64,000 nucleotides of DNA from a virus. Taxonomy: Duplodnaviria; Heunggongvirae; Uroviricota; Caudoviricetes. Where the stretch lies: IMG/VR virus record IMGVR_UViG_3300028048_000050, positions 19,494 to 83,493 of that record. One strand, written 5' to 3'. Below, one piece after another: positions 12,300 through 63,678 of this stretch (the stretch's first letter is position 1; every line of letters starts with the position of its first letter). The notes under the pieces are model-generated. The model was not told the origin of the DNA. It saw only the letters and a program-made list of their open reading frames with translations, and ran no database searches. The position numbers were made by a program, and so were the translations under genes.

Positions 12300-12390
12300 T
12301 TTTAGCGGAGAGGCTGGGTTCCGACCCCAATCCAATAATTTGAACGTGAAGTTTAGCAGACTACCCCTACTCCTTGCAGGTTGCTCTCTC
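12300..12390 (-). tRNA. tRNA-like element, non-canonical (acceptor GGAGAGA/CCTCTCC, T-loop-like GGGTCGGAACCC)
   Basis: The two ends can pair and there is a T-arm-like hairpin. No standard anticodon arm was found. Confidence 0.2.
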
Positions 12391-12517
12391 CTTATTATAC
12401 TTACATTCCACTATCCCGTACAACTGTAATCTTTTAGCCTTGATTGGGTGATACTAAACTATTCGTTGCCTACGGTAACTTCTCCTAATTTAATAGGTGT
12501 TTCCTTCTGTATTAGAG

Positions 12518-14602: not shown

Positions 14603-14724
14603 ATATGCTAGGACTTCCTCTACCTAGCTTTGCAGATTTTCCAATTTTGGCTGGAAGGTTTACCTACACTTATGCAGTAGGTCGCACGCAGGTTCTGCTT
14701 AACCTTACCCGAAAAGGATTATAG

Positions 14725-14797
14725 TGCTCGTAGAGGGATTCAAACCCCCGGCACACTGTTTTGAGGACAGCTGTTCTGATCGCTGAACTATACGAGC
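14725..14797 (-). tRNA. tRNA with anticodon UCA (opal/UGA-reading; suppressor- or Sec-like; C33 instead of U33)
   Basis: Canonical 73-nt cloverleaf: acceptor GCTCGTA/TACGAGC, D-stem GTTC/GAAC, anticodon arm GCTGT-CCTCAAA-ACAGT, T-arm GGGGG-TTTGAAT-CCCTC. Confidence 0.5.
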
Positions 14798-25089: not shown

Positions 25090-25135
25090 TGAGTATCTCG
25101 TTGTGGAGTCAGAGGGAGTTGAACCCTCGTCCAAA
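25090..25135 (-). tRNA. tRNA 3'-half-like fragment (T-arm GAGGG-TTCAACT-CCCTC plus TGACTCC); no partner 5' half found
   Basis: Reverse complement of ggagtcagagggagttgaaccctc. Confidence 0.2.
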
Positions 25136-25436
25136 TAGAGTTTATTCTATAAGAATTATACAAGCTTCTGTGTATTTTTACTAATCAGTCAATTAGAAGG
25201 ACCAACACTTCCTTGTTTTAAGACTTTAAAAGAGATCTTTGCTAATGTCTTGCTTGAAACTTTTAATAACTGAGTAAGTTTCCAACTCAGGCAGCCATTA
25301 ATTCTTTAGAATTAAAAGCTACAATTTTAATGTTTAATAAGTCGCCTTTTATTCTTTTATAGGTCTCTCCCTATTGTCAGTGCTTGTTCTTATTACCTTC
25401 ATCTATTGTCTATTTTCCTTTTGACCCCAAGTATTG

Positions 25437-27558: not shown

Positions 27559-28749
27559 TTAAAAAAGATTTCTTAAAACCATTGAGCTATATAAAGAAGG
27601 TTTATTATCAGCGTTTGTTATATAATAGTAATAATAACAATCATCATCAGCAGTAACAATAATCTTTTTCTTAAAGTCAATAGAAACTATTTCATCTTCG
27701 TTAAATTCGTCTCCAATTTTTAAGTTTTTAAACTTAATAGAGGAATCTACATATTCTCTTTGAACTGAATAGAAACTTCTACAGTTACTTAATTTATATT
27801 CTTCAAGTTCTCTCTTTTGTTCTTCAGATAATTGATCATAAGGAACTCCAGGACAAGGATGAGGCATAGGATTTAATACTCTTTCTGCTTCTTTAGCAAA
27901 ATTATTTATAGAGAATTTTTCTTTGTTTTCCAACACCTCGTCTTTATACATATAACCACGAATACATGTATATTCATAATTACATACACTAACATTAAAG
28001 AACTCTTTAGCTTTAGTTAATCCATCCATTCCATGAATATTAACTTCATTAACAATAGTCTTTAAAATATCAATAGTTGATATAGTTAAAGTATCTATAT
28101 AATCAATAAGTTCTTGACGAGCTTCTGGAACATGAAGATTATCATCAAGATATTCTTCAACTGTTTTTAACTCTAAGTTTCCAAACTTCCTAACATAACG
28201 AAGTCTTGAAGGTCTTCCAATAAGATTTTCGTTAATATTCATTTCATTAGAAGTAAGAAGGAATATCTTTCTATAAATAGAATTATATACTCCATCCATT
28301 ATTTGAAGAATTGTAGAATCAGCTTCTTTAAAATTTTTCTCGAATTCGTCAAAGAAAAGAACACAATCAAAATTAAATTTACCAATAAATTCAATCATGT
28401 CCTGATTCTGATCTCCCATATCTTTAACAATAATAATTGGAAGATTAAAATCATTTGCTAGAGTTTTAGCTGTAACAGTTTTACCTGTTCCTTTAGTTCC
28501 CGTTAACATAATACCAAAGTTTCCAGTGGTATTCTCATAGGTCTTTAAAACGTGTTTACAAAACTCTGTTTGAAGACCATACATTTTATAATCAAAGGTA
28601 AACTTATCAGCATATCTGTCAAGATACCATCCTGTCATTGATACTTCAATATTGTAAATACCTACAGGAATTTGTTTAACAGTACTAAAATTACCTTCTA
28701 CTCTTTGATAAGAGTTGTCTCTTTTTAACCAGCTTACTATTGTTTCCAT
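27559..28749 (-). CDS. AAA+ family ATPase
   Basis: 396-aa ORF. Walker A motif LTGTKGTGKT and Walker B motif VLFFDEF. Confidence 0.55.
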   Translation of the reverse strand: METIVSWLKRDNSYQRVEGNFSTVKQIPVGIYNIEVSMTGWYLDRYADKFTFDYKMYGLQTEFCKHVLKTYENTTGNFGIMLTGTKGTGKTVTAKTLANDFNLPIIIVKDMGDQNQDMIEFIGKFNFDCVLFFDEFEKNFKEADSTILQIMDGVYNSIYRKIFLLTSNEMNINENLIGRPSRLRYVRKFGNLELKTVEEYLDDNLHVPEARQELIDYIDTLTISTIDILKTIVNEVNIHGMDGLTKAKEFFNVSVCNYEYTCIRGYMYKDEVLENKEKFSINNFAKEAERVLNPMPHPCPGVPYDQLSEEQKRELEEYKLSNCRSFYSVQREYVDSSIKFKNLKIGDEFNEDEIVSIDFKKKIIVTADDDCYYYYYITNADNKPSLYSSMVLRNLF

Positions 28750-30329: not shown

Positions 30330-30448
30330 GTCAGGAGGCCAGGATTCGAACACTGGGATACAGGCACCATAAGCAACGTTAAAATAGTATTATAAGTATC
30401 AATAATGATACTCTAAAACTACTGCGTGTTACCACTACACTACCTCCT
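30330..30448 (-). tRNA. 119-nt tRNA gene carrying a hairpin insertion of about 46 nt (AGAGTATC...GATACT-TATAATACTAT...) after an intact D-arm; the anticodon may be UAG (Leu-like) but the T-arm is degenerate
   Basis: Acceptor CAGGAGG/CCTCCTG. D-arm GTGT-AGTGGTAAC-ACGC. The insertion belongs to the conserved family described in the findings. Confidence 0.35.
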
Positions 30449-30545
30449 GGTAAATTAGGGTGTTTCACAACAGCCTAATCTTAAGAACTTTTCATTCGAC
30501 TTTTTAAAAATAACAACGATAACTAACTTATTGTAACAAGTAATG

Positions 30546-30678
30546 TTGGGGGACTGGGATTCGAACCCAGGACTTAGATTTATGAGATCCTTATTTTATT
30601 ATGCTTTAAGATGTTGTAGGTATCAAAATGATACTAATGCTTTTATTTTCTTACATGTTACCACTACACCATCCCCCA
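30546..30678 (-). tRNA. 133-nt tRNA gene with an insertion of about 59 nt between the D-arm and a Met-type anticodon arm (AGGAT-CTCATAA-ATCTA)
   Basis: Acceptor TGGGGGA/TCCCCCA (perfect). D-arm GTGT-AGTGGTA-ACAT. T-arm CTGGG-TTCGAAT-CCCAG. The insertion contains AGTATCATTTTGATAC-CTACAAC. Confidence 0.4.
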
Positions 30679-30707
30679 TATAAAAGATACTTAAGTATTT
30701 ATTTATC

Positions 30708-30782
30708 GAAGAAAGATTTTCAGTCTTTTGCGTTTACCATTCCGCCACATTTCCAATCGGAAAAGAAGGGATTCGAACCCCT
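30708..30782 (-). tRNA. candidate circularly permuted tRNA-Phe(GAA)-like gene: T-arm plus acceptor 3' strand (30758-30782) sit directly upstream of acceptor 5' strand, D-arm and anticodon arm (30708-30754)
   Basis: Sense order: AGGGG-TTCGAAT-CCCTT CTTTTCC G ATT GGAAATG TG GCGG-AATGGTAAA-CGC A AAAGA-CTGAAAA-TCTTT. The 3' strand pairs 6 of 7 with the downstream 5' strand. No T-arm follows the anticodon arm. Confidence 0.3.
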
Positions 30783-30863
30783 ATTTCATTCATACGAATG
30801 AGATTGTAAGTATCTTATATTACTAATACGTTAGAAAGTTTTCTAAAAAAGGTTACTAAATGA

Positions 30864-30943
30864 TTACGTCAAATTACAAATTTGATGCTCTACCATTGAG
30901 CGATTCTGGCAAAAATGGAGCCCGAACTAGGAATCGAACCTAG
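30864..30943 (-). tRNA. candidate circularly permuted tRNA-Thr(UGU) gene: 3' half including an encoded CCA (30911-30943) lies upstream of the 5' half (30864-30910)
   Basis: Sense: CTAGG-TTCGATT-CCTAG TTCGGGC T CCA TTTTT GCCAGAA TC GCTC-AATGGTA-GAGC A TCAAA-TTTGTAA-TTTGA CGTAA. The reassembled 76-nt cloverleaf is canonical with a 6 of 7 acceptor stem. Confidence 0.35.
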
Positions 30944-31001
30944 AATGTATATATATTATTGTAAGTAACCTATTCACTTATGAAACGAAACTAAAACAGA
31001 T

Positions 31002-33779: not shown

Positions 33780-33904
33780 TGGGGGAGGCTGGACTCGAAC
33801 CAGCGAACCTTTTCTTTCAACAAAAATGCTATACCTGTAATTTATATTATAGTATTGTAAGTAACTTAAGTTACTAGAAAATTCTCTAACTTAGCTACTC
33901 CCCC
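33780..33904 (-). tRNA. 125-nt tRNA gene with a family insertion of about 45 nt (AGTAACTTAAGTTACT-TACAATACTATAATAT...) lying between D-stem strands GCTA...TAGC
   Basis: Acceptor GGGGGAG/CTCCCCC (perfect). Downstream arm TTTTT-GTTGAAA-GAAAA. T-arm GCTGG-TTCGAGT-CCAGC. Confidence 0.4.
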
Positions 33905-34101
33905 AATTAAAAAGTCACAGATTCCACTCTATGACTGTTGTACACAACACTCGAGTTACATGTACCTCCACCCATTACAACTTATTGAAGGGCTTCTCAA
34001 GTCACGACCATTGAGTCGATCATTTTGTTCTATCTTTAACGTGATTAACAAACAAATCACGGGGCATTTATTTTACATCGGATGGGTCCAAACGATGGGA
34101 G

Positions 34102-34211
34102 CGGCGAGGGTGGGAGTCGAACCCACTTTTTCAAATTTGACATATTTGCGTTAATAAATTTGATGTTGTAAGTAACTAAACAGATACTCATTTCCGTTTA
34201 ACTACCTCGCC
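34102..34211 (-). tRNA. 110-nt tRNA-Asp(GUC)-like gene with a family insertion between the D region and the anticodon arm
   Basis: Acceptor GGCGAGG/CCTCGCC. Anticodon arm CAAAT-ATGTCAA-ATTTG. T-arm GTGGG-TTCGACT-CCCAC. The insertion contains GAGTATCTGTTTAGTTACTTACAAC. Confidence 0.4.
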
Positions 34212-34287
34212 AAATGCCTGTCTATTCCAGGCTGTCACTAAATCAAGTGGTTAATTACATAAACTAACATAAAGTCTCACGACTTGG

Positions 34288-34412
34288 TGCCAGGGGTTGG
34301 AATCGAACCAACAACACTTTGTTTCATAGACAAATACTCTATCCTTTTGAAAATTATAGTATTATAAGTAACTAATAAAATTACTAAAATCAATTTATTG
34401 AGTTACCCTGGC
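34288..34412 (-). tRNA. 125-nt tRNA gene with a D-loop insertion (AGTAATTTTATTAGTTACT-TATAATACTATAATTTTCAAAAGGATA) flanked by a perfect D-stem ACTC/GAGT; the anticodon loop reads CTATGAA (AUG?); 3'-CCA encoded
   Basis: Acceptor GCCAGGG/CCCTGGC (perfect). Anticodon arm TTTGT-CTATGAA-ACAAA. T-arm TGTTG-GTTCGATT-CCAAC. Confidence 0.4.
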
Positions 34413-34565
34413 AATTTAATCCAAACTCTCTAGAGAATAACAATTCATTACTTAGTAATAGGTCTACTATTATCCTATCATTCGGCTTGTCAATTTGAAT
34501 ACCTACGTTTATTCTAAATTACAAACTTAGTACGTCAATACTTCTTGTTATAGTTTGGATTAATG

Positions 34566-34685
34566 CGGCGGAGGCCGGATTCGAACCGACTATTTTAATT
34601 TATCAGATTAATTTTTTACCTTGAAATTATATGATAATATTGTAAGTAACTTGAGTTACTCTAAATTTACCATAAACTTCTCCGC
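34566..34685 (-). tRNA. 120-nt tRNA-Ile(GAU)-like gene with a family insertion on the 5' side of the anticodon arm
   Basis: Acceptor GGCGGAG/CTCCGCC (perfect). Insertion AGTAACTCAAGTTACT-TACAATATTATCATATAATTTCAAGGTA. Anticodon arm TTAAT-CTGATAA-ATTAA. T-arm GTCGG-TTCGAAT-CCGGC. Confidence 0.4.
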
Positions 34686-34749
34686 CAATTTGTCCAGAAC
34701 GCTTTCTGGACTTTCAATAACTAAAAACTTAAAACTATGAAATCTACTA

Positions 34750-34873
34750 AAAAGATTGCGGGGAGTGGAGGATTCAAACCTTCACTTCTGGATTGTGTCC
34801 CAGAAAATTGTAAAATATGATTTTGTAAGTAATAAATTCTGTTACTAAATACAATCGAGCCTAATCAATGCTC
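34750..34873 (-). tRNA. 124-nt class-II tRNA gene with a family insertion of about 32-39 nt inside the anticodon loop (stem ATTGT/ACAAT); anticodon identity ambiguous
   Basis: Acceptor GGGGAGT/ACTCCCC. D-arm GAGC-ATTGATTAG-GCTC (perfect). Insertion AGTAACAGAATTTATTACT-TACAAAATCATATTTT. Long variable hairpin TTCTGG...CCAGAA. Confidence 0.4.
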
Positions 34874-35014
34874 AAACTCCCCAAATGAGTACCTATTTTC
34901 ACAAACCGGTACTCTAAATACTAATTATATAAATACATTTGTTAAACATTATAATAGCTTATGAATATTATCATAAAATAAGTACTATTTTCACAAACCA
35001 GTACTTTTTAACTA

Positions 35015-35129
35015 GGAGGCCTGTAGGATTCGAACCTACACTATTAGTCTATCCTAAGGGAACACTTTCTAACCCGAAGCTTATTTACCTTTAAAGATAG
35101 TTGTGCTACCCGATTAACACTAAGACCTC
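35015..35129 (-). tRNA. 115-nt tRNA gene with a different insertion of about 40 nt (contains GCTTCGGG) enclosed by stem CTATC/GATAG; the loop begins TTTAAAG (UAA-like)
   Basis: Acceptor GAGGTCT/AGGCCTC. D-stem GTG/CAC. T-arm GTAGG-TTCGAAT-CCTAC. Confidence 0.3.
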
Positions 35130-35144
35130 AAATAAATATTTGAG

Positions 35145-35262
35145 TGGAGGGAGCTGGAATCGAACCAACATTATACTTTTTTACGCAAAGTTTTTTATTT
35201 AAATTAAAGATATTGTAAGTACATAAAAATATACTCATTTTAACCAATATTTTAATCCCTCC
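35145..35262 (-). tRNA. 118-nt tRNA gene with a family insertion (GAGTATATTTTTATGTACT-TACAATATC...)
   Basis: Acceptor GGAGGGA/TCCCTCC (perfect). Downstream arm ACTTT-GCGTAAA-AAAGT. T-arm GTTGG-TTCGATT-CCAGC. Confidence 0.35.
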
Positions 35263-35281
35263 AAATAAAGATACTAAATAT

Positions 35282-35353
35282 TCTACATGATGGAATCGAA
35301 CCACCTACACTCAGAATGAAAATCTAATGCTCTACCTAATGAGCTAATGTAAT
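35282..35353 (-). tRNA. tRNA-Glu (UUC) second copy; its 5' acceptor strand lies inside the conserved tail of an upstream family element (AAGATACTTATAATATTATAAATTACAT)
   Basis: D-arm GCTC-ATTAGGTA-GAGC. Anticodon arm TTAGA-TTTTCAT-TCTGA. T-arm GGTGG-TTCGATT-CCATC. Confidence 0.4.
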
Positions 35354-35403
35354 TTATAATATTATAAGTATCTTTAAAGACATTAAGATGAGTAAAGTAA
35401 TAG

Positions 35404-35480
35404 TGGAGAAGGAAAGACTCGAACTTCCAAACACTTATACCTAGAATTTTAAGCTGCTATACCATTTCGCATACTTCTCC
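35404..35480 (-). tRNA. tRNA (the loop CTTAAAA suggests a Leu-UAA type; the anticodon stem is unclear)
   Basis: Acceptor GGAGAAG/CTTCTCC (perfect). T-arm TGGAAG-TTCGAGT-CTTTCC. Confidence 0.35.
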
Positions 35481-35626: not shown

Positions 35627-35689
35627 CTAGGATTAGCGACAAACCCGTCTTACTAACCCATAGACTTTTGTATATTACATTTTACTATT

Positions 35690-35840
35690 TTAAACTAAAG
35701 CTATTTCAACCTCATGTACTGATCCACTATACTATATCCCCAAGTAGAATAGCTATTTTCACAAACCGCTATTCTCAATTTACAAATAATTCATTATCAA
35801 CTTCTTTTGCAATCTACAAGAGGGGATAAGGAGATTCGAA
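35690..35840 (-). tRNA. possible permuted or split tRNA locus: a 3' half (T-arm AGGAG-TTCGAAT-CTCCT plus TATCCCC, 35824-35840) sits about 75 nt upstream of a 5' half (GGGGATA TA GTAT-AGTGGATCA-GTAC..., at or below 35745) that pairs 7 of 7
   Basis: The acceptor strands are perfectly complementary but arranged in the reverse of the normal gene order. No anticodon arm was identified. Confidence 0.2.
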
Positions 35841-36018
35841 CTCCTGTTACAAGGTTTATCATAAAACATGATCGTAGAATAGTAAGTAACATACAGTAAA
35901 GCTGACCTATAAAGCTTTTGACCACGACATTAAAGCTAAACATCTAGGATTGAAGTAAAGCTAAATCATAAATCTAAAGCTACGGTCAATATAAAAATGT
36001 TATTTAGATTTCTATCTA

Positions 36019-36810: not shown

Positions 36811-36862
36811 ATATTTTAAAAGTAATAATTAAAAAATGTTAAAAAATACAAGATACTAAAAC

Positions 36863-36933
36863 AAAATATTGTCGGGATTGAACCGACTCCCTAAAATTAA
36901 CAGTTTTATGCTCTACCCATGAGCTAAATAAAT
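36863..36933 (-). tRNA. tRNA-Asn (GUU) second copy, with a family element abutting its 5' end
   Basis: D-arm GCTC-ATGGGTA-GAGC. Anticodon arm TAAAA-CTGTTAA-TTTTA. T-arm GTCGG-TTCAATC-CCGAC. Upstream: AAGATACTTACAAAAATAAAGTTACAATTTATT. Confidence 0.4.
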
Positions 36934-36975
36934 TGTAACTTTATTTTTGTAAGTATCTTAGAGTCTATGTGCTAA

Positions 36976-37676: not shown

Positions 37677-39488
37677 TTAGAGCGTATTCTTACGAACAAG
37701 CTCGTAACGATTTGAGCGATATATACTCTGTAAAGGAGTATAAACATCAAAGATATCCATATCCTTGAAGTTCACTAAGAACTGTTCAATTTGAGCAGGA
37801 TTGGCGGGAATATAAATCATATTCTCTATTCCTTCAAAATGGTTAGCCTGAGGAGAACCATAATTAGGAATTTCAATCATTACTATAAATGGAACAAATC
37901 CCATGATACGGCGGCAAGCGTTCTGGAAATCTAACATACTGCTACGAGCATTGTAACTGTTGTTAAGATCACCATCACTACAAATTGTCCAAATAGGATA
38001 GTTCTTGAGTTCATCAAGCATATCAGGATTCTCGTGAATAATATACTCAATACCTTCAGGAATAGAATTCAGTCTGGTTCCACCTCCCTGGAACACCGCA
38101 TCACAAAAATTAGAAATTCTCTTATAATTGTCATAGAAACTCAGAGTTCCATCGACAAGAGGCTTTCTATTAGTCTGAGCAACAGTAGTTCTTAAGAGAC
38201 TATTGGTCTTACGTCCTGTCTGGTCAATGAAAGAGTGCCAATGTGAATGGCTATTAAAGAAGCCAATCAGATTTCTAGCATCATCATCAGGATTCTTTAC
38301 AAGACATACTGAAGCAATGAACTTGGCAAAGTTGAAGGGAGCTCCACTCATAGAACCTGAATCATCAATGATGACCAGACTATTGTATGGAAGATTTACT
38401 CTATTCTGAATGAAAGACTCTAGTTTCAACTTATCTATATTACCTCTAAGAATATTGTCATAAATATCCTTGAAGTTAATAGCACCAGTTGTTACCTTGG
38501 CTTCTTTCTTCACCTTCTCAAGTTTAACCTTATCCTCTTCAGATGCTTGTCCTTGACGAACCTTCTCTTCGAGAACACGCTGTTCAGCTTGCTTCTGCTC
38601 CTTATAAGTTTCCCACTCCTTTACCCAAGGCTGGAACTTCTCCCACTTAGGAAGCATGTTAGAAAAAGCGTGTTCACTCTCCTTCTCTATTGTAGAATAA
38701 AGAATACGATTCTTTACTCTGAAACGAGCCTGTGCTGGAAGCTGATCAAACCACTTTAAGAACTCGTCTTTAGTGAATTCATTAATCTTTCCGGTAGTGA
38801 ACAGTACACTCTCAAGATCACCGTTGTATTGCTTACGCCACTCACGATAACCTTTAAAGAAAGCTACATCCCAACCCATCATTTTAGAGAGTTCAGCAAT
38901 AAATGCTGCTTTCTCTGCCATGATTTTCTTAGTCTCAGGAAGAATCTTCTTGTGACCTTGTCTCTTTGACATACGAGGAATAGTAAGGAACTTAGCAATG
39001 AGCAACTTATTAAATGGATTGGTTCCATTAATTACAGAATAAGTATACTCAAGAAGAGCCTTAGCATATTCTTTATCAGAGAAAGCGGAGTAAATCTTGA
39101 GAACCTTGTTACCCCTTGTCTGAACACGATTACGGAACAGAACATCAAAACATGAGTACTCATTAAAGAGCTGAGCATTCATGAATTTGATGAACTGATC
39201 TTTGTCGTGCTTCCACATCCATTGAACAATAAGGAAGAAAGCTTCACGATTAGCATTACCTCCATTGTCTACCTTCTGATTGTGGAAGATATTGTGTTGT
39301 CTGTTAGTAATGTCTCCAATACTAAAGAGAATAGTATAAAATAGTTCACGCTTCTCTTTAGAATCCTTTACTTCTGCCCATGCTCTATCAAGATAAGCAA
39401 TAGGACCATTACTCTGGAATAGATCCAGACAATTCTTCATTCCAAAGAATGGATTGTTATTTTCTTTGTTTAATTTTACTTCTACCAT
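37677..39488 (-). CDS. large protein with a C-terminal von Willebrand factor A (vWA) domain
   Basis: 603-aa ORF. It has the MIDAS-type motif VIIDDSGSMSG. There is no TAG codon in 603 codons. Confidence 0.5.
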   Translation of the reverse strand: MVEVKLNKENNNPFFGMKNCLDLFQSNGPIAYLDRAWAEVKDSKEKRELFYTILFSIGDITNRQHNIFHNQKVDNGGNANREAFFLIVQWMWKHDKDQFIKFMNAQLFNEYSCFDVLFRNRVQTRGNKVLKIYSAFSDKEYAKALLEYTYSVINGTNPFNKLLIAKFLTIPRMSKRQGHKKILPETKKIMAEKAAFIAELSKMMGWDVAFFKGYREWRKQYNGDLESVLFTTGKINEFTKDEFLKWFDQLPAQARFRVKNRILYSTIEKESEHAFSNMLPKWEKFQPWVKEWETYKEQKQAEQRVLEEKVRQGQASEEDKVKLEKVKKEAKVTTGAINFKDIYDNILRGNIDKLKLESFIQNRVNLPYNSLVIIDDSGSMSGAPFNFAKFIASVCLVKNPDDDARNLIGFFNSHSHWHSFIDQTGRKTNSLLRTTVAQTNRKPLVDGTLSFYDNYKRISNFCDAVFQGGGTRLNSIPEGIEYIIHENPDMLDELKNYPIWTICSDGDLNNSYNARSSMLDFQNACRRIMGFVPFIVMIEIPNYGSPQANHFEGIENMIYIPANPAQIEQFLVNFKDMDIFDVYTPLQSIYRSNRYELVRKNTL

Positions 39489-39759
39489 AAAATTTTAATC
39501 TGTTTTGTTTGTAAGTAAAAAAGTAAATTATCCTACCAAGTACTTTTTACGATCGAATTATTAGTACCTCCTCCACACCATTTAACTTGTCTTAAACCTT
39601 CTATGTTTCTTTAATACTGGCGATTTGTTTAGCCTCGGATAATTATATAAAAAGAAAGGAAGGGATTCACGTGGATTTATCTTTAGGATTAGAGTGCCTT
39701 CACTAGTAACCACGCATCGCACCACACTCCTGGTTTCCCTTCTACGAATCTTCTTTCTA

Positions 39760-43213: not shown

Positions 43214-43317
43214 TGGATAAGAGAGGATTCGAACCTCTAACCTCCTAGTAAAATCTAGGGCTCTACCCGACAAAAACAAGGTGCGAAGGATAGTCGGAGC
43301 CGTTGAGCTACTTATCC
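43214..43317 (-). tRNA. tRNA-Lys (UUU) with a GC-rich hairpin insertion of about 33 nt in the D-loop
   Basis: Acceptor GGATAAG/CTTATCC (perfect). D-stem GCTC/GAGC encloses AACGG-CTCCGAC...GTCGG-GTA. Anticodon arm CCTAG-ATTTTAC-CTAGG. T-arm AGAGG-TTCGAAT-CCTCT. Confidence 0.45.
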
Positions 43318-52891: not shown

Positions 52892-52907
52892 TAAGTAACT
52901 AGAGATT

Positions 52908-52995
52908 GCTCTGTGGTGTAATGGTTTAGCACAGCGGACTCTAAATCCGTAGCCCTCTGAAGGCGTAAGTGTGGGTTCGAATCCTACCAGGGCAA
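52908..52995 (+). tRNA. amber suppressor tRNA, anticodon CUA, class II (long variable arm; closest in arm sequences to this window's own tRNA-Leu(UAA))
   Basis: Acceptor TGCTCTG/CAGGGCA. D-arm GTG-TAATGGTTTAG-CAC. Anticodon arm GCGGA-CTCTAAA-TCCGT. Variable arm AGCCCTCTGAAGGCGTAA. T-arm GTGGG-TTCGAAT-CCTAC. Confidence 0.6.
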
Positions 52996-53196
52996 CAACA
53001 TTAATACAATTTTAGAATGGATACAAAATTATTTAAAGATTTATATCAAGCAAATATTGATGAAATTAAAGCTATAGAACAATTATCTATAGAACATAAT
53101 ATGTTAGATAATGGATATTACTTAAACTGGAAAGATAATTTAAATAAACTATCTATAGATTTAGATAGAGAATAATAATTAAATTTTAATGGGTGT

Positions 53197-58387: not shown

Positions 58388-58963
58388 ATGAATATATGGG
58401 ATTATAATTAGAAAACTGGAAGAGCACAATTATTAACTGCTGATTTAGTTTTAATTGATGAATTTAAAAAATTATTAGAACCTTCCAGAAATAAATGTAA
58501 TGAGGATCCTTCTGGACTAGAACACATTAGAGCTGATAGAGAGTTTACTTATATATATTTAGCAATAGATTGGAAATCTCCATATGCTAATTATAGCAAT
58601 TAGGAAAAACATGAAGCTGCTTTAAAAGATGCTCATATTTCAGAAGAAGAATGGAATAACCCTGAATTTCGTGCTGCTTGTAGAAAGTATGTATCAATTC
58701 AAGATTCCAATAGATATGTAAGATTACTTCAAGCTGCTTAGGAGGTAACTGATAAGATTATTGATTATTTCCATAATGTGGATTTACAAGAACAAGATGA
58801 ACAAGGTAAATATCTTGTTAAAGTTAAAGATGTTCAAGCTGCTATGAAAGAGGCTGCTGATCAAATTGAAACTTTGAAACAAATTGAATCTCTTGTTAAG
58901 AAAGAAGTTATGGAGCAAAGTCAAATACGTGGTGGAGCTGTTGAAGGATTTATGCCTGATTAA
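58388..58963 (+). CDS. hypothetical protein with three in-frame TAGs (possible small terminase subunit, by position only)
   Basis: MNIWDYN-TAG-KTGRAQLLTADL...ANYSN-TAG-EKHEAALKD...LQAA-TAG-EVTDKII... then the ORF at 58778..58963. Confidence 0.4.
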
Positions 58964-61239
58964 TGGAGGAAATTAAAAAGAAAAGAGGTCGTCCACGTAA
59001 GAATCCTATACCAGAAGTTCCTGAGGAAGTTTAGTCTATAATTACTGAGGTTCAACAAAAACAAGAGGAACTTCAACAGCAAATAGAAGAAATAAAGCCT
59101 TAGGTTGTAGAACACAAAGAAGGTGAATGGGATGTCAAAATAGGAGACCCGATACCTTACTTTGATAAAAGACTTTCCTATGAATTAACTGGATATAGAC
59201 CTATTACAGAAACAGAAGGATTAGATTTTGATCCTTCTTGGTTTACTGAAGCTAGAGAAATATTCTTAAAGACAGAACAATATTGTTCTTATTATCCAGG
59301 CTCAAAACTTTATAGAGATTTCTGGAATGAAGAATATAGAAGATGTAAGGAAGGAATGACAGTTAATGGTTATACTATTACTGGATTTAACTATTACTTT
59401 CTTAATTATTATCAATTACCTAATACAGAACAAGATGTAGCCGGTGATAGCCGTTCTATTATATTTCCAAGATTCTTTGTATATCAATACGAATTCTTTC
59501 ATTACTTTGAATTATGTAGAAAGTTAAGAAAGAATATGACTGTAATGAAAAACAGAGGATGTGGATTTTCTGAGATACATGCTTCTATATTTGATAATTT
59601 CTTTAACTGTTTTAAAAATAGTATATGTCTTCTTACTGCTTTCGATGATAACTATGTTAAAAAAACTCTTGATAAAATTAATGCAGGAATAACTTTTACT
59701 GATGATAATACTCAAGGAGGAATGTTAAAACTTAGACAAGTTATTAATACAGCAACTAAGAAAAGAGCTTCTCACTATAAAGTAGTAAATGGTCAAAAAA
59801 TTGAAACAGGTTTCATGTCCCAAATTGAAGGAATTGTTGTAGATAAGGATAGAAAGATGAGAGGTGACCGTGTAGGTTTCTTATTTCTTGAAGAATCAGG
59901 TTCTAATCCTATACTTGAACGTTCCTTTATTAAAGCAGAAGAACTTGTAACTGTTGGTGGTAATAAAATTGGTATTATAGCAGCAGTAGGAACAGGTGGT
60001 GATGCCGGTCCTAATCTTGAAGGTTTAAGAAAAGTATATTATAATCCTAAAATGTTCCAAGTGCTTCCATTTAAACATAATTATACAGAAGATGGAGATT
60101 GGGTTGAAACTGCTTATTTTATACCTGCATATATTTCAATGAATAACTCAAAATTTGTTGGAAGTCGTGGTGAATATCTCATGGAAAAACAAAGAGAACA
60201 TTATGAACAAAGACGTGCAGATATAACTGATCCTAAAACTTTATTAGACCATAAAGCAGAGCAATGTTTCACAGCTGAAGAAGCCTTTGCAGCGGAAGGT
60301 GTAAATAAATTTAATAAACTTAAAATAGCTGAACAAATTATAGCTATTAGAATTAAAAAACAAGCTCCTCCTATTCAAAGAGGATATATGGAGTTTGTAT
60401 ATTCTGGTCCAGAAAGAAAAAGAGAAAATATTATCGGAGTTAGATTTAAACCTAATCCGAATGGGCCTGTTAGAATATTAGAAGAACCTTTATGGGAAGA
60501 CGGAAGTCCTATAATCCAAAATCTTTATGTAGCAGGAATTGACGGTATTGATATTGGACAAGCAGAAACTTCTAAAGAAACTAGAGATCCTTCTAAATTT
60601 TGTACTATGATAAAACGTAGAGTACATGGAATGAAGGAACCTATGTATGTGGCATATTATTTAGATAGACCTAATGATATTAGAGAAGCATACAAACAAA
60701 CAATGGCTTTATTATGGTATTATCAAGCCAAAGCTAATATAGAAGCAACTCGTTTGTCTGTTCTTACATACGCTCGTGATAATAAGTTTGCACATTTCTT
60801 TATGAAACGTCCTAGAGCTTGTTATGGAGGAGACGAAAGAAGAAGAACTAATGGACAATACGGTACTACAGCTACTACAGCCATGATTGAACATGGCACT
60901 GATTTAGTTGCTTCGTATGTAGAAGATTACTGTCATAATATATGGTTTATAGAATTTTTAGAATAGTTAAATCTTTATACTGATGAAAATAAAGGTAAAT
61001 TTGATATGGTTGCAGCGTGTCAAATGGCAGAAGTTGGAGATGAAGAGTTAAGTGATATTATTCCAAGAGAATATAAACCAGTTTCTAAGGAATTTAAAGA
61101 TATAGGATATTACACCGACGAAAATGGACATAAAAAATTTGGTGTAATACCAAAACAAAATGAAAACTCTGTTAGAGGACATATAAATACAGGATATGTC
61201 GAGGGTTATAATATAACAAGTAATTCAAGATATAGATGA
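58963..61239 (+). CDS. terminase large subunit-like protein (about 758 codons, three in-frame TAGs)
   Basis: The ATG at 58963 overlaps the upstream TAA. The N-terminus is MEEIKKKRGRPRKNPIPEVPEEV-TAG-..., with a second TAG at 59101. The body is the ORF at 59356..60966 (Walker-like VMKNRGCGFSE and LLTAFDD, plus an RNase-H-like nuclease motif LYVAGIDGIDIGQAETSKETRDPS). A TAG at 60964 joins it in frame to 61006..61239, which ends at a TGA. Confidence 0.5.
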
Positions 61240-61535
61240 ATGATATGGAAAAAGCCATTTTAGATATGATAGAGTGTAAATACAAATGTAAATATACTGG
61301 ACATATTAAAGTGACTAAATTAGGGAAGGGTGGGACTGGATATAAAGTTGTATTAGACTTTGACAATCTAGACAAACCTATATTACAAATATCTGCAGAT
61401 TTAAATGCAGAAGATTTTTTAAAATTTGTTGAACAAGAACTCGTCTCTAGACAATTACATAGAGTAAAATTCTTTAGGGGAGTTAAAATTTATCCGGAAG
61501 ATGAAGAAAGAAGAACTTGTTAGCAAAACTAATTT
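61236..61535 (+). CDS. small hypothetical protein (terminal TAG followed by Q-N-TAA)
   Basis: The ORF at 61236..61523 plus a TAG-readthrough of two codons. Confidence 0.35.
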
Positions 61536-63678
61536 AGCTATTTCTGAACTTGTTTAGGAAAAGACAGCTATATAGAAAGCATATAACTATTATAACTGTA
61601 AACGAGATAAGGAATAGTTTAAATACTTAGAAGAGAACTTTGGTATTGGGTAGCCAACAGCGGTTGAGTTTATTCCTTTAATCAGGAAACATATAGACGC
61701 TTTAGTAGGAGAATATTTAGATGTTCCAATTCTTCCAAAGGTTTCTTGTAAAGATACTGAAACTATTAATAATATATTTAGAGAGAAACAAGTAAAGATT
61801 GCTACAGAATGTTATAATCTCCTACAAAATAATCTCAAAAATAATCTCTTACGAATACTAGGTAGCAAAGATATGTAGGATCTAAATATAAAAGAATAGT
61901 TGGATAAACTTATAGAAGATATTAATGAAAACTTTATTTCGGAATATGAAATAGCTGGATAGAATGTTATAGAATATATAATTCAATCTAGAAATATTGA
62001 TTTAGTAACTAAATTAAAACAATTATTTATTGATTTATTAGTTTCTGGATTTACTTTTTATAGAGTTCTTCCTTCTTCTTCTGGACATAATATAAACATT
62101 TAGTGTTTAAATCCATTAGATGTTTTTCCAGATTTAAATTATGATTCTCCTTATATTAATGAATCATATAGAATAGTAGTTAGAAGTTTCTTAACTCGTA
62201 ACTAGATTCTTAGTAAATATGGAAAGGATTTATCTAAAGAAGACATTTCTAAAATAGAAGAAATGTGGACAGACTCTTTAGAAACTACTGGTTCTTATTT
62301 TGTAAGAAGTTGTAACCCAGATGGTACTCCTGCAACTGATGGTATAAGAGCTGGTGAAGAAGTTACTCCAGGTTTTCCTGAATATAGTTATTATAAAAGA
62401 GATCTTATTCCTGTATATGAAGTTGAATGGATCGAAACAGATAAGAAATTTGTAGAACAAAGATATTCTACTGTAAGAATTGGTTCTGAAATTTATATAC
62501 TAAAAGGAATAGATGAAAATGTAGTAAGAACTAAAGATGCACCAAATAAAGCAACACTTAGTGTTAATGGTGTATGGTTTAATAATAGAGGTAGAGAACC
62601 TTTCTCTATGGTTCAAAAATGTATGGTACTTCAAGACCGTTATGACCTATTACATTTTTATAGAGATAATTTAATAGCTCAATCTGGTTCTGTTGGTGAT
62701 TTTATTAATTTACCTACTTTACCAACTATTCTAGGAGATGATTTATCAGAAAGATTAATGAAGTGGAAAGCTTATAAGAAACAAGGTATGGCTTTAATTG
62801 ATACTTCTCAAGAAGGTCAAATAGGAACAGGTCAAGCTCCTTTAACTACTATATATAATGGGTATGACGATACTGTTAAAGTTCAAGCTATTCAAGCTAT
62901 TCAATTAGCTATTGATTCTGTAGAGCAAACAACTTCTTCAATCACTGGAGTATTTAGAGAAAGATTAAACGGAATATAGCAACGTGATGCTGTAACTAAT
63001 ATCCAAACAGGTATTAATAATTCATTTATAGTAACTAAACAATGGCATTATCAAATGGATTTAATAACAAGAGAAATTTTATTAGATTCTTTAAATTGTG
63101 CTAAAATAGTTTACAAGGACGGATTAACTGGAACATTAATATTAGGTAATAAGTTACAAAAAATATTTACTGCTTTACCAAAATATTTTACAGTTACAGA
63201 TCACGATATACATATAATTACTTCATCAGAAGTAGTAAAAGAAATGGAACAAATTAAGGCTGTTGTTCCAGAATTTATAAAGGGAGGAATTGTTTCTGCT
63301 GATATATTAATGGATATTATGACTGCTAAGAGTTTATCAGAAATGAAACTAAAAGTTAATAAAGCTATTAAGAAATAGAAAGCAGAAAATAATTAGATAC
63401 AACAACTTACATAGTAGGTTGAAGAATTACAGAATAATTTACAGCAAGCTCAACAACAACTTCAACAAGCATAGAGTAAAGTTGAATCTCTTAATGAAGC
63501 TAAACTTCAAATAGAAAGAGAAAAGAATCAAATGCAATTCTAGCTTGATGATTATAAGAATAAGACTGATAGAACATTTAAGGAAAGTCAAGCTGAAAAT
63601 GATACTAAACGTACTGAAATTGAGCTTATGTAGTTATATGATGGAAATCCTTATAATGATGAAGTTAAAAACGTATGA
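61501..63678 (+). CDS. portal-like large structural protein (about 725 codons with about 17 in-frame TAGs; the call is by position and size only)
   Basis: One frame runs from the ATG at 61501 (MKKEELVSKTNLAISELV-TAG-EKTAI...) through the ORFs at 62263..62979 and 63055..63378 and a Gln-rich C-terminal coiled-coil to the TGA at 63676. The only stops in the frame are TAGs. Confidence 0.45.

What the first reader, a model, noticed from the sequence alone, without database searches (positions are those of the whole stretch)
30708..30943. Two tRNA genes apparently encoded in circularly permuted order (3' half upstream of 5' half)
For Thr(UGU), the T-arm, acceptor 3' strand, discriminator and CCA (30911-30943) lie 5 nt upstream of the acceptor 5' strand, D-arm and anticodon arm (30864-30910). 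No T-arm follows the anticodon arm. Joining the halves gives a canonical 76-nt cloverleaf with a 6 of 7 acceptor stem. The same arrangement occurs for a Phe(GAA)-like gene at 30708-30782. A possible third case at 35690-35840 has a 7 of 7 acceptor stem with the halves about 75 nt apart. Permuted tRNA genes are known from the red alga Cyanidioschyzon and a few archaea, processed through a circular intermediate. To my knowledge they have not been described in a phage.
Basis: inference. Interest (0 to 1): 0.7.

Follow-up and report, generated by a model that had tools for sequence, protein, structure and literature searches.

The report
Circularly permuted tRNA genes in phage
A rumen or gut phage of bacteria encodes complete tRNA-shaped RNAs whose 3' part lies in front of their 5' part, a gene layout known only from a few algae and archaea, and it is conserved with compensatory mutations in many related phages; whether they end up as working tRNAs is not settled.

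Summary
On the minus strand, T-arm, 3' acceptor strand and N73(CCA) sit 3-5 nt upstream of the matching 5' acceptor strand, D-arm and anticodon arm. This holds for Thr(UGU) (30970-30851) and a GAA unit (30816-30684). A third unit (35890-35682) is broken in the anticodon loop.

Un-permuted in silico, the three score like the window's best ordinary tRNAs. The competing reading, a normal-order gene with an insert, pairs only 3/7 in the acceptor.

Fifteen distinct Thr units from related contigs keep the acceptor helix (100/105 cells paired, compensatory change at 6/7 positions). They also keep the other stems, the 15:48 tertiary pair and the anticodon loop.

- Each unit is bracketed by a covarying helix followed by invariant UACAA.
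- The same cassette brackets ordinary tRNAs.
- As a hairpin, it interrupts at least 7 normal-order tRNA genes.

There is no BHB motif and the host is bacterial, so the algal/archaeal pathway does not apply.

Maturation is unresolved. I favour RNase P opening of the acceptor to give a two-piece tRNA, as in two-piece tmRNA. The rivals are cut-and-ligate splicing and a YrlA-like tRNA mimic.

This is a new variant of a known kind, with high interest.

The parts
30964..30970 (-). Thr unit: leader arm GGTTACT (5' strand of the cassette helix)
   Evidence: Pairs with 30851-30857. It is paired in 105/105 cells of 15 units, with a T-A to A-T swap in 4 units.
30958..30963 (-). Thr unit: invariant box TACAAT directly after the leader arm
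   Evidence: TACAA is invariant in all cassettes.
30944..30957 (-). Thr unit: AU-rich leader spacer. Its last bases (..ACATT) supply the 3' part of the variable loop, and its last base is position 48.
   Evidence: The last base covaries with D-loop base 15: A15/T48 in 14 units, G15/C48 in 1.
30916..30943 (-). Thr unit 3' part: T-arm, 3' acceptor strand TTCGGGC, T73, CCA
30911..30915 (-). Thr unit: linker TTTTT between CCA and G1. This is the predicted RNase P / 3'-trimming substrate.
   Evidence: The full stretch from N73 to G1 is 4-12 nt in the 15 units (4-10 in all but one register-shifted parse, L016). N73-CCA is encoded in 8/15.
30869..30910 (-). Thr unit 5' part: 5' acceptor strand GCCAGAA, D-arm, complete anticodon arm (UGU)
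   Evidence: The anticodon loop YUUGUAA is invariant.
30845..30868 (-). Thr unit: trailer spacer (30858-30868), trailer arm AGTAACC (30851-30857), T-run (30845-30850)
30803..30816 (-). GAA unit: leader arm AAGATACT plus box TACAAT
   Evidence: Pairs with 30684-30692. L010 has GAGATACTT/AAGTATCTC, a compensatory change.
30783..30802 (-). GAA unit: leader spacer with covarying hairpin CATTC-gtat-GAATG (possibly a long variable arm)
   Evidence: L001 has ATTGAAT-tgt-ATTCAAT.
30755..30782 (-). GAA unit 3' part: T-arm, CTTTTCC, G73, then linker ATT
30712..30754 (-). GAA unit 5' part: GGAAATG, D-arm, anticodon arm (GAA at 30719-30721)
   Evidence: Orthologues carry GAA, CAA, AAT, TGA, GAC, TTG or CTA.
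30684..30711 (-). GAA unit: trailer spacer and trailer arm AAGTATCTT (30684-30692)
35821..35890 (-). Third unit: cassette-like leader GTTACTTACTAT (35879-35890), then the 3' part (anticodon-stem 3' strand from about 35857, T-arm 35845-35829, TATCCCC, T73)
   Evidence: An orthologue in L016 has compensatory acceptor, T-stem and anticodon-stem changes.
35742..35820 (-). Third unit: 79-nt linker holding a hairpin (35748-35775) with the conserved loop GGTTTGTGAAAATA
35682..35741 (-). Third unit 5' part: GGGGATA, D-arm, 5' half of the anticodon arm (to about 35704), then a conserved trailer with arm AGTAA (35682-35686)
30331..30678 (-). Two normal-order tRNA genes interrupted by the cassette hairpin at position 27/28: 30546-30678 (CAU) and 30331-30449
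   Evidence: 7/7 acceptor partners lie 119-132 nt apart. After in-silico deletion they score 120.9 and 116.1. They are conserved with the insert in relatives.
33780..35262 (-). Block of interrupted normal-order tRNA genes: 33780-33904, 34102-34211 (Asp GUC), 34288-34412, 34566-34686 (Ile GAU), 34759-34882, 35015-35129 (a different insert type), 35145-35262
   Evidence: Inserts lie in the D-loop pockets or the anticodon loop.
36849..36960 (-). The same cassette bracketing an ordinary tRNA-Asn (36862-36934)
   Evidence: 9-bp arm run; tRNA called.
35267..35375 (-). The same cassette bracketing an ordinary tRNA-Glu (35281-35353)
   Evidence: 9-bp arm run; tRNA called.
37677..39488 (-). 603-aa helical + vWA(MIDAS) protein, preceded by a cassette (arm and box at 39509-39522). 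It is syntenic with the tRNA/permuted cluster in relatives. It may be an RNA-binding partner, but this is unproven.
   Evidence: In L018 the first permuted unit lies 92 nt downstream of this gene.

Best explanation
What it is (confidence about 0.9): these are real, conserved genes for circularly permuted, complete tRNA cloverleaves.

Each transcript would read:
- cassette arm (xGNNACU), then UACAA, then an AU-rich spacer;
- [last variable-loop bases, T-arm, 3' acceptor strand, N73, often CCA];
- a 1-12 nt linker, often a U-run;
- [5' acceptor strand, D-arm, anticodon arm];
- a roughly 10-nt spacer, the complementary cassette arm, then a T-run.

The RNA folds into a cloverleaf whose acceptor stem is capped by the linker. 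Its variable loop is open, and the two ends are clamped by the cassette helix.

How it most likely works (inferred, not shown): RNase P cuts 5' of G1 inside the linker. Exonucleases then trim the U-run back to CCA, or CCA is added. This frees a normal acceptor end using only ordinary bacterial enzymes. The molecule stays in two pieces, held by the acceptor stem and the cassette helix, which takes the place of a long variable arm. Two-piece tmRNA from permuted ssrA genes works this way, and M. smegmatis YrlA is cut by RNase P and CCA-tailed.

The Thr and GAA-family units keep an intact canonical anticodon arm, so they could be charged and decode.

The same cassette marks a second, redundant tRNA set at 30-37 kb. 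In that set it is a bracket around ordinary tRNAs or a retained hairpin in loop positions.
For: Gene order and cloverleaf.

Selection across 15 distinct Thr units:
- acceptor 100/105 cells paired, compensatory change at 6/7 positions;
- T stem 74/75, D stem 60/60, anticodon stem 75/75, cassette helix 105/105;
- 15:48 tertiary pair covaries;
- anticodon loop invariant.

Other evidence:
- Further permuted families occur in L001, L010, L015, L016, L018 and L020, with anticodons GAA, CAA, AAU, UGA, GAC, UUG and CUA.
- The minimum-free-energy fold of the window unit is exactly this structure, z = -2.7.
- N73-CCA is encoded in 8/15 permuted Thr units, against about 3 of the ordinary tRNA genes of the window (33 called by ARAGORN). 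This fits a 3' end made by trimming after an RNase P cut.
- Linkers are short (1-12 nt) and U-rich.
- The cassette helix covaries widely, for example GTTACT/AGTAAC, GATACT/AGTATC, GACACT/AGTGTC, GTCACT/AGTGAC, GGCACT/AGTGCC.
- The cassette is transcribed: in L020, and by eye in the window, its partner arm lies inside the first codons of the 603-aa ORF.
- All insert or break sites are loops where a tRNA fold tolerates additions: the D-loop pockets, position 26/27, the variable loop and the anticodon loop. None is inside a helix.
- Precedents: M. smegmatis YrlA is cut by RNase P and CCA-tailed (PMC4201824). Two-piece tmRNA is from my own knowledge (Keiler et al. 2000).
Against: - No expression data were available, so no end, cleavage or aminoacylation is shown.
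- The third unit and gene 34759-34882 are broken in the anticodon loop. They cannot decode unless they are spliced, so a cut-and-join activity may exist, or those members do not decode.
- The invariant UACAA has no role in the two-piece model.
- Anticodons of the cassette-associated set mostly duplicate the plain set.
- The anticodon of the GAA family changes between close orthologues.
- Some members have anticodon and body combinations unfit for known identity rules, such as UGA or CAA with a short variable arm, and AUG.
- The cassette also brackets ordinary tRNAs, from which it must be removed. It may therefore be a processing signal and not a retained clamp.
Confidence: 0.4

Rival explanations
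1. Cut-and-ligate maturation. An unknown host- or phage-encoded endonuclease removes the cassette (leader, trailer or hairpin insert). An RNA ligase of the RtcB or Rnl type then joins the ends. This yields canonical roughly 76-nt tRNAs from permuted and interrupted genes alike. It would be a bacterial or phage counterpart of Cyanidioschyzon/Thermofilum processing, without a BHB.
For: - It is the only model that makes every member a usable tRNA, including the units broken in the anticodon loop (35890-35682, 34759-34882).
- One cassette appears around ordinary tRNAs, inside interrupted genes and around permuted genes. This mirrors how archaeal BHB stems serve processing, introns and permuted genes.
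- In-silico spliced products score 112-121.
- Uninterrupted normal-order homologues of the Thr body exist elsewhere.
- Lak megaphages were reported to have 'enigmatic' tRNA introns, including a Thr(UGU) (PMC6784885).
Against: - There is no BHB.
- Distances from the helix to the exon ends vary (0-16 nt on the 5' side, 7-23 nt on the 3' side), so no ruler from the cassette is possible.
- No ligase or endonuclease was found among the ORFs of 200 aa or more in the 64-kb window. The rest of the genome was not examined.
- No orthologue lacks the insert.
- Inserts avoid helices, which a splicing system would not require.
Confidence: 0.3
2. tRNA-mimicking non-coding RNAs of the Y-RNA/YrlA kind. The order would be terminal helix, T-arm, acceptor-like stem-loop, then D-arm. 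They would be bound by a phage protein, perhaps the neighbouring helical+vWA protein, and would not be used in translation. They might act as decoys or tethers for tRNA-binding enzymes or anticodon nucleases.
For: - The Rfam YrlA model matches over its full length at sub-threshold scores: 26.7 bits at window 30860-30969, and 41.6 and 29.7 bits in L018.
- Units broken after the D-arm (L010 12526, L016 16418, L018 11916) have exactly the YrlA topology and a non-canonical 'anticodon' hairpin.
- The 603-aa neighbour hits phrog_850 'RNA-binding protein'.
- In L018 a unit lies 92 nt after that gene.
- The anticodons are redundant and fast-changing.
Against: - No unit reaches the family's gathering score of 69 bits in the window or in 100 kb of relatives.
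- No GNCGAAN0-1G motif is present.
- The Thr and GAA units keep a complete canonical anticodon arm, which YrlA lacks.
- Its best full-length structural neighbours are DUF2828/DUF7788 vWA proteins.
- Encoded N73-CCA and linkers of 1-3 nt point to a real acceptor end.
Confidence: 0.2
3. Non-functional debris: tRNA gene fragments shuffled by recombination between repeated cassette sequences, as with promoter-stem-loop cassettes of T4-type phages.
For: The cassettes are repeated many times in a region with duplicated anticodons. HNH and GIY-YIG endonuclease genes lie in the equivalent region of L016.
Against: Every stem is kept by compensatory changes across 15 or more genomes, and the cloverleaf scores are high. 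Pseudogenes would not maintain this.
Confidence: 0.05
4. Mis-pairing by the reader: tandem normal-order genes with long inserts, so that the 5' half at 30910-30869 belongs with the T-arm at 30782-30766, as Rfam calls it.
For: Rfam calls 30758-30910 as a tRNA at 31.8 bits. Genuinely interrupted normal-order genes lie next door.
Against: That acceptor pairs 3/7 Watson-Crick, against 6/7 for the permuted pairing. The GAA 5' half would have no 3' partner (1/7 with the next T-arm). The outer 3' half would have no 5' partner, because an ORF ends at 31002. Covariation follows the permuted pairing.
Confidence: 0.02

Closest known systems
Circularly permuted tRNA genes of Cyanidioschyzon merolae, prasinophytes and nucleomorphs, and Thermofilum pendens (Soma 2007, Maruyama 2010, Chan 2011; from my own knowledge, mentioned in PMC4090602)
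   Same: The 3' part is encoded upstream of the 5' part on one strand, with a short intervening linker. Leader and trailer are complementary. The joined halves give a canonical cloverleaf. Disrupted genes of other kinds (introns at non-canonical sites) sit in the same genome.
   Different: There is no bulge-helix-bulge motif, and the host is bacterial with no known splicing endonuclease. CCA is often encoded. The break is mostly in the variable loop. The flanking helix carries an invariant UACAA and also brackets ordinary tRNAs. No circular intermediate has been shown.
Two-piece tmRNA from circularly permuted ssrA genes (alpha-proteobacteria and some cyanobacteria; Keiler et al. 2000, from my own knowledge)
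   Same: It is a bacterial, permuted gene for a tRNA-like acceptor/T-arm module. The 3' CCA end and the 5' end are linked in the precursor and are separated by ordinary processing. The pieces stay base-paired without ligation.
   Different: That is tmRNA, not a full tRNA with an anticodon arm. The phage's own tmRNA (25101-25428) is the ordinary one-piece kind.
YrlA / bacterial Y RNAs with Ro60 (Chen et al. 2014, PMC4201824; Rfam RF02553)
   Same: The order is terminal helix, then T-arm, acceptor stem-loop and D-arm. tRNA tertiary pairs are kept. The M. smegmatis YrlA is cut by RNase P and CCA-tailed. The family is known from phages.
   Different: The scores are below the family threshold. The Ro-binding motif is absent. 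A complete anticodon arm is present. No recognisable TROVE protein is encoded nearby.
'Enigmatic' tRNA introns of Lak megaphages (Devoto et al. 2019, PMC6784885)
   Same: These are phage tRNA genes with conserved inserts of unknown splicing mechanism. They include a Thr(UGU) whose 'intron may itself encode a tRNA', which is what a chain of permuted units looks like to tRNAscan or Rfam.
   Different: They were described as introns in normal-order genes. No permutation or cassette was reported, and I did not examine the Lak sequences.
Split tRNA genes of Nanoarchaeum equitans (Randau 2005, from my own knowledge)
   Same: The halves are brought together by complementary flanking sequences.
   Different: Those halves are separate genes joined through a BHB by an endonuclease and a ligase. 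Here both halves are on one transcript and in swapped order.

Membership tests
Circularly permuted tRNA genes (Cyanidioschyzon / Thermofilum type) | 3' portion encoded directly upstream of the 5' portion, on the same strand | tested here: met
   The three units have partner offsets of +9, +4 and +80 nt.
Circularly permuted tRNA genes (Cyanidioschyzon / Thermofilum type) | Joined halves give a canonical cloverleaf with a conserved acceptor helix | tested here: met
   ARAGORN scores of 117-122. Acceptor paired in 100/105 cells, with compensatory change at 6/7 positions in 15 units.
Circularly permuted tRNA genes (Cyanidioschyzon / Thermofilum type) | Leader and trailer form a bulge-helix-bulge motif at the junction | tested here: not met
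   There is only a plain 7-9 bp helix, separated from the exon ends by 9-20 unpaired nt.
Circularly permuted tRNA genes (Cyanidioschyzon / Thermofilum type) | Circular intermediate and ligated mature tRNA | not testable with these tools
   No RNA data were available.
YrlA / Y RNA (RF02553) | Order of terminal helix, T-arm, acceptor stem-loop, D-arm | tested here: met
YrlA / Y RNA (RF02553) | Reaches the Rfam gathering score (69 bits) | tested here: not met
   26.7 bits in the window. The best in relatives is 41.6 bits. None passes at gathering threshold.
YrlA / Y RNA (RF02553) | Ro-binding motif GNCGAAN0-1G in the terminal helix | tested here: not met
   No match in any of the three units.
YrlA / Y RNA (RF02553) | Encoded next to a Ro60/TROVE protein | tested here: inconclusive
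YrlA / Y RNA (RF02553) | Terminal stem replaces the anticodon arm (no anticodon loop) | tested here: not met
   The Thr and GAA units have a complete 5-bp stem and a 7-nt loop with U33 and a purine at 37. Some other family members do meet this feature.
Normal-order tRNA gene with an intron (as called by Rfam at 30758-30910) | The 5' and 3' acceptor strands flanking the insert are complementary | tested here: not met
   3/7 Watson-Crick pairs, and 3 non-pairs flagged by cmscan.
Two-piece RNA from a permuted gene (tmRNA-like maturation) | Linker between the 3' CCA end and the 5' end is removed, and the pieces are held by helices without ligation | not testable with these tools
   The sequence is compatible: encoded CCA, U-rich short linkers and a covarying clamp helix.

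The most novel reading that the evidence does not exclude
A clade of abundant phages of about 175-183 kb from rumen and gut, infecting bacteria, runs a previously unknown, BHB-independent system for disrupted tRNA genes. Its signal is one RNA cassette: a covarying helix plus UACAA. The cassette directs processing of ordinary, interrupted and circularly permuted tRNA precursors. The products are functional tRNAs, including suppressors. They arise either by protein-catalysed cut-and-ligate splicing or as two-piece tRNAs. Either way, this would be the first permuted tRNA genes, and the first non-self-splicing tRNA 'introns', in the bacterial world.
Probability: 0.4. Interest if true: 0.9.

Novelty: new variant of a known kind. 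Interest (0 to 1): 0.78.

Why it matters
Permuted tRNA genes have been a curiosity of a red alga, some green algae, nucleomorphs and one archaeal lineage. In all of those they are tied to the BHB splicing endonuclease. Finding them in a virus of bacteria has several consequences.

- Either bacteria or phages can cut and join tRNA pieces by an unknown route, or tRNAs can work as non-covalent two-piece molecules, or phages build a whole battery of full-length tRNA mimics. Each of these would be new biology.
- The finding gives a concrete, testable reading of the 'enigmatic introns' reported in megaphage tRNAs.
- It exposes an annotation trap. ARAGORN misses these genes, and Rfam or tRNAscan fuse neighbouring units into false intron-containing tRNAs.
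- Some units carry suppressor anticodons in phages that recode TAG in late genes. Their maturation could therefore gate late gene expression.

Tried and rejected
1. Normal-order pairing of the halves with a 75-nt intron: rejected at 3/7 Watson-Crick.
2. The motif [GA]TACTTACAAT as a plain sigma-70-type promoter. It is not flagged above shuffles. Its 5' part is a covarying helix arm, and its partner can lie inside an ORF. So it is transcribed. A promoter role in addition is not excluded.
3. BHB motif: none found.
4. Group I or other known introns and ribozymes in the inserts: no Rfam family matches.
5. Cultured relative: only a distant csAssE-Sib flotillin hit with no tRNAs nearby. There was no DNA-level match in the phage collection.
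7. One viral-collection scan was wasted on an off-by-one pattern.
8. MAFFT mis-registered two units by one base, so I counted pairs on a structural parse instead.
9. Host search in isolate genomes: one unrelated hit.
10. RNA ligase or endonuclease in the window: none among the ORFs tested. About two thirds of the genome lies outside the window and was not examined.
Full report
OBSERVATION

All tRNA genes of this AT-rich window (about 30% G+C) lie on the minus strand, except a CUA-suppressor tRNA on the plus strand at 52907-52996. Read on the minus strand, the finding is exactly as described.

- The Thr(UGU) unit has a T-arm, 3' acceptor strand, T73 and CCA at 30943-30916. Five T's follow. Then come the 5' acceptor strand, D-arm and a complete anticodon arm at 30910-30869.
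- The GAA unit runs from 30782 to 30712 with a 3-nt linker.
- ARAGORN calls nothing in this stretch.
- Rfam fuses the Thr 5' half with the GAA unit's T-arm into a 153-nt 'tRNA' of 31.8 bits, with three broken acceptor pairs.

I scanned every T-arm in the window and asked where the best complement of its 3' acceptor strand lies.

- For ordinary tRNAs it lies about 70-85 nt upstream.
- For eight genes at 30-35 kb it lies 109-132 nt upstream. These are normal-order genes with an insert.
- For exactly three T-arms it lies downstream: 30943 (+9 nt, 6/7 Watson-Crick), 30782 (+4, 6/7) and 35845 (+80, 7/7).

Chance expectations are about 0.003, 0.036 and 0.003. The rival normal-order pairing gives 3/7.

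Un-permuted in silico, the three molecules score 117.1, 119.8-122.0 and 120.8 with ARAGORN. The window's ordinary tRNAs score 103-123, and wrong combinations of halves score 0-111. The third unit is a second GAA tRNA broken inside the anticodon loop.

COMPARATIVE EVIDENCE

Related contigs were fetched in three ways: through the flanking SPFH/flotillin gene, through a conserved 603-aa protein, and through the Thr D-arm/anticodon-arm sequence. The sample identifiers look like rumen and gut metagenomes, which is my inference from the names.

The permuted Thr unit occurs in 15 distinct versions.

- The acceptor helix, formed by the upstream 3' strand and the downstream 5' strand, is paired in 100/105 cells. 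Double-sided compensatory changes occur at 6 of 7 positions.
- The T stem is paired in 74/75 cells, the D stem in 60/60 and the anticodon stem in 75/75.
- The anticodon loop YU-UGU-AA never changes.
- The tertiary 15:48 pair covaries: A15 with U48 in 14 units, G15 with C48 in one. This fixes the last leader base as position 48.
- N73-CCA is encoded in 8/15 units, and the others carry near-CCA variants. Only about 3 of the window's ordinary tRNAs (33 called by ARAGORN) encode CCA.

The GAA unit has orthologues in L010, L015, L001, L016 and L018. They share a conserved U6.U67 mismatch and compensatory stem changes. Their anticodons differ, however: GAA, GAA, CAA, AAU, UGA and GAC. Related units carry UUG and CUA.

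The third unit has an orthologue in L016 with compensatory acceptor, T-stem and anticodon-stem changes. More permuted units broken after the D-arm occur in L001, L010, L016 and L018. The permuted order is therefore a selected feature of a gene family, not an accident.

Every permuted unit starts with a 7-9 nt arm followed by invariant TACAA(T/A). It ends with the complementary arm followed by a T-rich stretch.

- The arms covary freely between genomes and paralogues. Examples are GTTACT/AGTAAC, GATACT/AGTATC, GACACT/AGTGTC, GTCACT/AGTGAC, GGTACT/AGTACC, GGCACT/AGTGCC and GCTACT/AGTAGC. One case is TGTAAC/GTTACA, where even the 'ACT' changes.
- The minimum-free-energy fold of the window's Thr unit is the permuted cloverleaf closed by this helix (z = -2.7).
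- The same cassette brackets ordinary tRNA-Asn (36960-36849) and tRNA-Glu (35375-35267).
- It forms stem-loops just upstream of tRNA-Leu, tRNA-Glu and tRNA-Arg.
- It precedes the 603-aa ORF, with its partner arm inside the first codons in L020 (9/9) and, by eye, in the window. It is therefore transcribed.
- As a hairpin (arm', loop, arm, TACAAT) it sits inside at least 7 normal-order tRNA genes at 30331-30678 and 33780-35262. An eighth interrupted gene (35015-35129) carries a different insert that lacks the motif.

Removing the inserts in silico gives cloverleaves scoring 112-121 for most of these genes. The inserts lie in the D-loop pockets, at position 27/28 or in the anticodon loop. No orthologue lacks its insert.

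Normal-order, uninterrupted homologues of the Thr body do exist in other contigs. Some are plain and some are bracketed by the cassette.

The cassette-associated set at 30-37 kb mostly repeats anticodons of the plain tRNA arrays at 10-15 and 25-29 kb.

WHAT KIND OF GENOME

- The window encodes a terminase, a portal protein, a DnaB-like helicase and many small ORFs.
- Late plus-strand genes carry in-frame TAG codons: 3 in terL and 17 in the portal gene. CUA suppressor tRNAs are present.
- The window encodes a tmRNA. It reaches threshold in relatives.
- An initiator tRNA carries the bacterial C1:A72 mismatch (T-arm 27086).

So this is a phage of bacteria, from a clade with probable genome sizes of 170-183 kb.

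HOW IT MAY WORK

What is shown is the gene order, the fold, and selection on all helices and on the clamp helix. Everything about maturation is inferred. No BHB can be drawn, because the clamp helix is separated from the exon ends by 9-20 unpaired nt of variable length. The algal/archaeal mechanism therefore does not transfer.

1. Two-piece model (favoured, about 0.4). RNase P cuts 5' of G1 in the linker, and exonucleases trim the U-run to CCA, or CCA is added.
   - This needs only ordinary bacterial enzymes.
   - It explains the enrichment of encoded CCA and the short U-rich linkers (1-12 nt).
   - It has two bacterial precedents: two-piece tmRNA from permuted ssrA genes (my own knowledge) and RNase P cutting plus CCA-tailing of M. 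smegmatis YrlA (PMC4201824).
   - The halves would stay together through the acceptor stem and the clamp helix, which emerges where a long variable arm would.
   - All breaks and inserts lie in loops where a tRNA fold tolerates additions, never in helices. This fits retention of the insert better than splicing.

2. Cut-and-ligate model (about 0.3). It is the only way to make the members broken in the anticodon loop decode. It also explains why one cassette serves ordinary, interrupted and permuted genes. It needs an unknown endonuclease that measures from the tRNA body, and a ligase. I found none in the window, and most of the genome was not examined.

3. Y-RNA-like mimic model (about 0.2).
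   - Against it: family thresholds are not met. The Ro-binding motif is absent. The Thr and GAA units have a full anticodon arm. The protein shows no TROVE signal by sequence. Its best full-length neighbours are DUF2828/DUF7788 vWA proteins.

NOVELTY

Searches for permuted or split tRNAs in phages found nothing. Lak megaphages were reported to have 'enigmatic' tRNA introns, including a Thr(UGU) whose intron 'may itself encode a tRNA'. That description fits a chain of permuted units read by standard tools, but I did not test it. Y RNAs with tRNA-like domains are known in phages.

I therefore rate this a new variant of a known kind. Permuted tRNA-type genes are a known kind. What is new here is a bacterial virus, a different flanking signal and an unknown maturation route. 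The variant sits in a large, abundant phage clade, which makes it directly testable with metatranscriptomes.

Noticed in passing
window 58960-63678 (+); tRNAs at 35403-35480 (-), 52907-52996 (+), 14724-14797 (-): Late genes are read through in-frame TAG codons: 3 in terL and 17 in the portal gene. The window carries two CUA-anticodon suppressor tRNAs and a UCA-anticodon tRNA, so TAG appears to be recoded in the late module.
   Followed up: partly
window 25101-25428 (-): A phage-encoded one-piece tmRNA: 32.7 bits, E = 2.8e-11, below Rfam's threshold here but above it in L010 16003-16376 and L016 20585-20961. It explains an 'orphan' T-arm at 25128.
   Followed up: yes
window 35748-35775, 34981-35005, 34887-34914 (-): Three hairpins share a conserved 13-14 nt loop GGTTTGTGAAAATA and have covarying stems (GAATAGC, AGTACT, GAGTACC). 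Two lie 4-5 nt upstream of a tRNA 5' acceptor strand. An L016 counterpart has the loop GCTTGTGAAAGTA. Function unknown.
   Followed up: no
window 30958-30965 versus 30874-30879 (-), and all cassettes: The invariant cassette box UUACAA is the exact complement of the Thr(UGU) anticodon loop UUGUAA (positions 33-38). It contains the Thr codon ACA followed by a purine, as in a T-box specifier. This could be coincidence, or the conserved permuted Thr RNA could pair with the cassettes in trans.
   Followed up: no
window 35015-35129 (-); L010 12225-12332: A tRNA-like gene whose anticodon loop carries a different, cassette-free 33-38 nt insert (..AGCTTCGGGTTAGAAAGTGTTCCC..). It is conserved at 76% identity in L010.
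   Followed up: no
L010 about 12330-12420: An odd element with three consecutive T-arm-like hairpins (GTAAG/TTCGATT/CTTAC, ATAGG/TTCGAGT/CCTAT, GCAGG/TTCGAAT/CCTGC), enclosed by the complementary ends AAGAGAGT...AACTCTCTT.
   Followed up: no
window 30712-30728, 34320-34345 and their orthologues: Anticodons of cassette-associated genes change between close orthologues while the stems are kept. The GAA unit shows GAA, GAA, CAA, AAU, UGA and GAC. Gene 34288-34412 has AUG in the window and GAA in L001 at 89% overall identity.
   Followed up: partly
window 37677-39488 (-) and 27559-28749 (-): A very abundant 603-aa helical + vWA protein (more than 1,200 relatives) with an invariant DDSGSM MIDAS motif and no Pfam family. 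An AAA+ ATPase lies 9 kb away, so this could be a MoxR/vWA-type pair.
   Followed up: partly
L020 1892-1964: A RAGATH-1 hammerhead ribozyme above the Rfam threshold (61.2 bits) in a related phage.
   Followed up: no
window 43214-43317 (-): A 104-nt tRNA-like element with a 7/7 acceptor (GGATAAG/CTTATCC). Neither ARAGORN nor Rfam calls it as such, and its internal structure is unclear.
   Followed up: no
L021, L028, L030 and similar metagenome contigs: Normal-order homologues of the Thr(UGU) body have an acceptor stem AGTAAAT/ATTTA(A)CT with a bulged base. Their leader carries a copy of the 3' strand (TTACTT) that can pair with the 5' acceptor strand. The cassette arms (AGTAAC/GTTACT) resemble this acceptor stem, which hints at how the cassette arose.
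   Followed up: no
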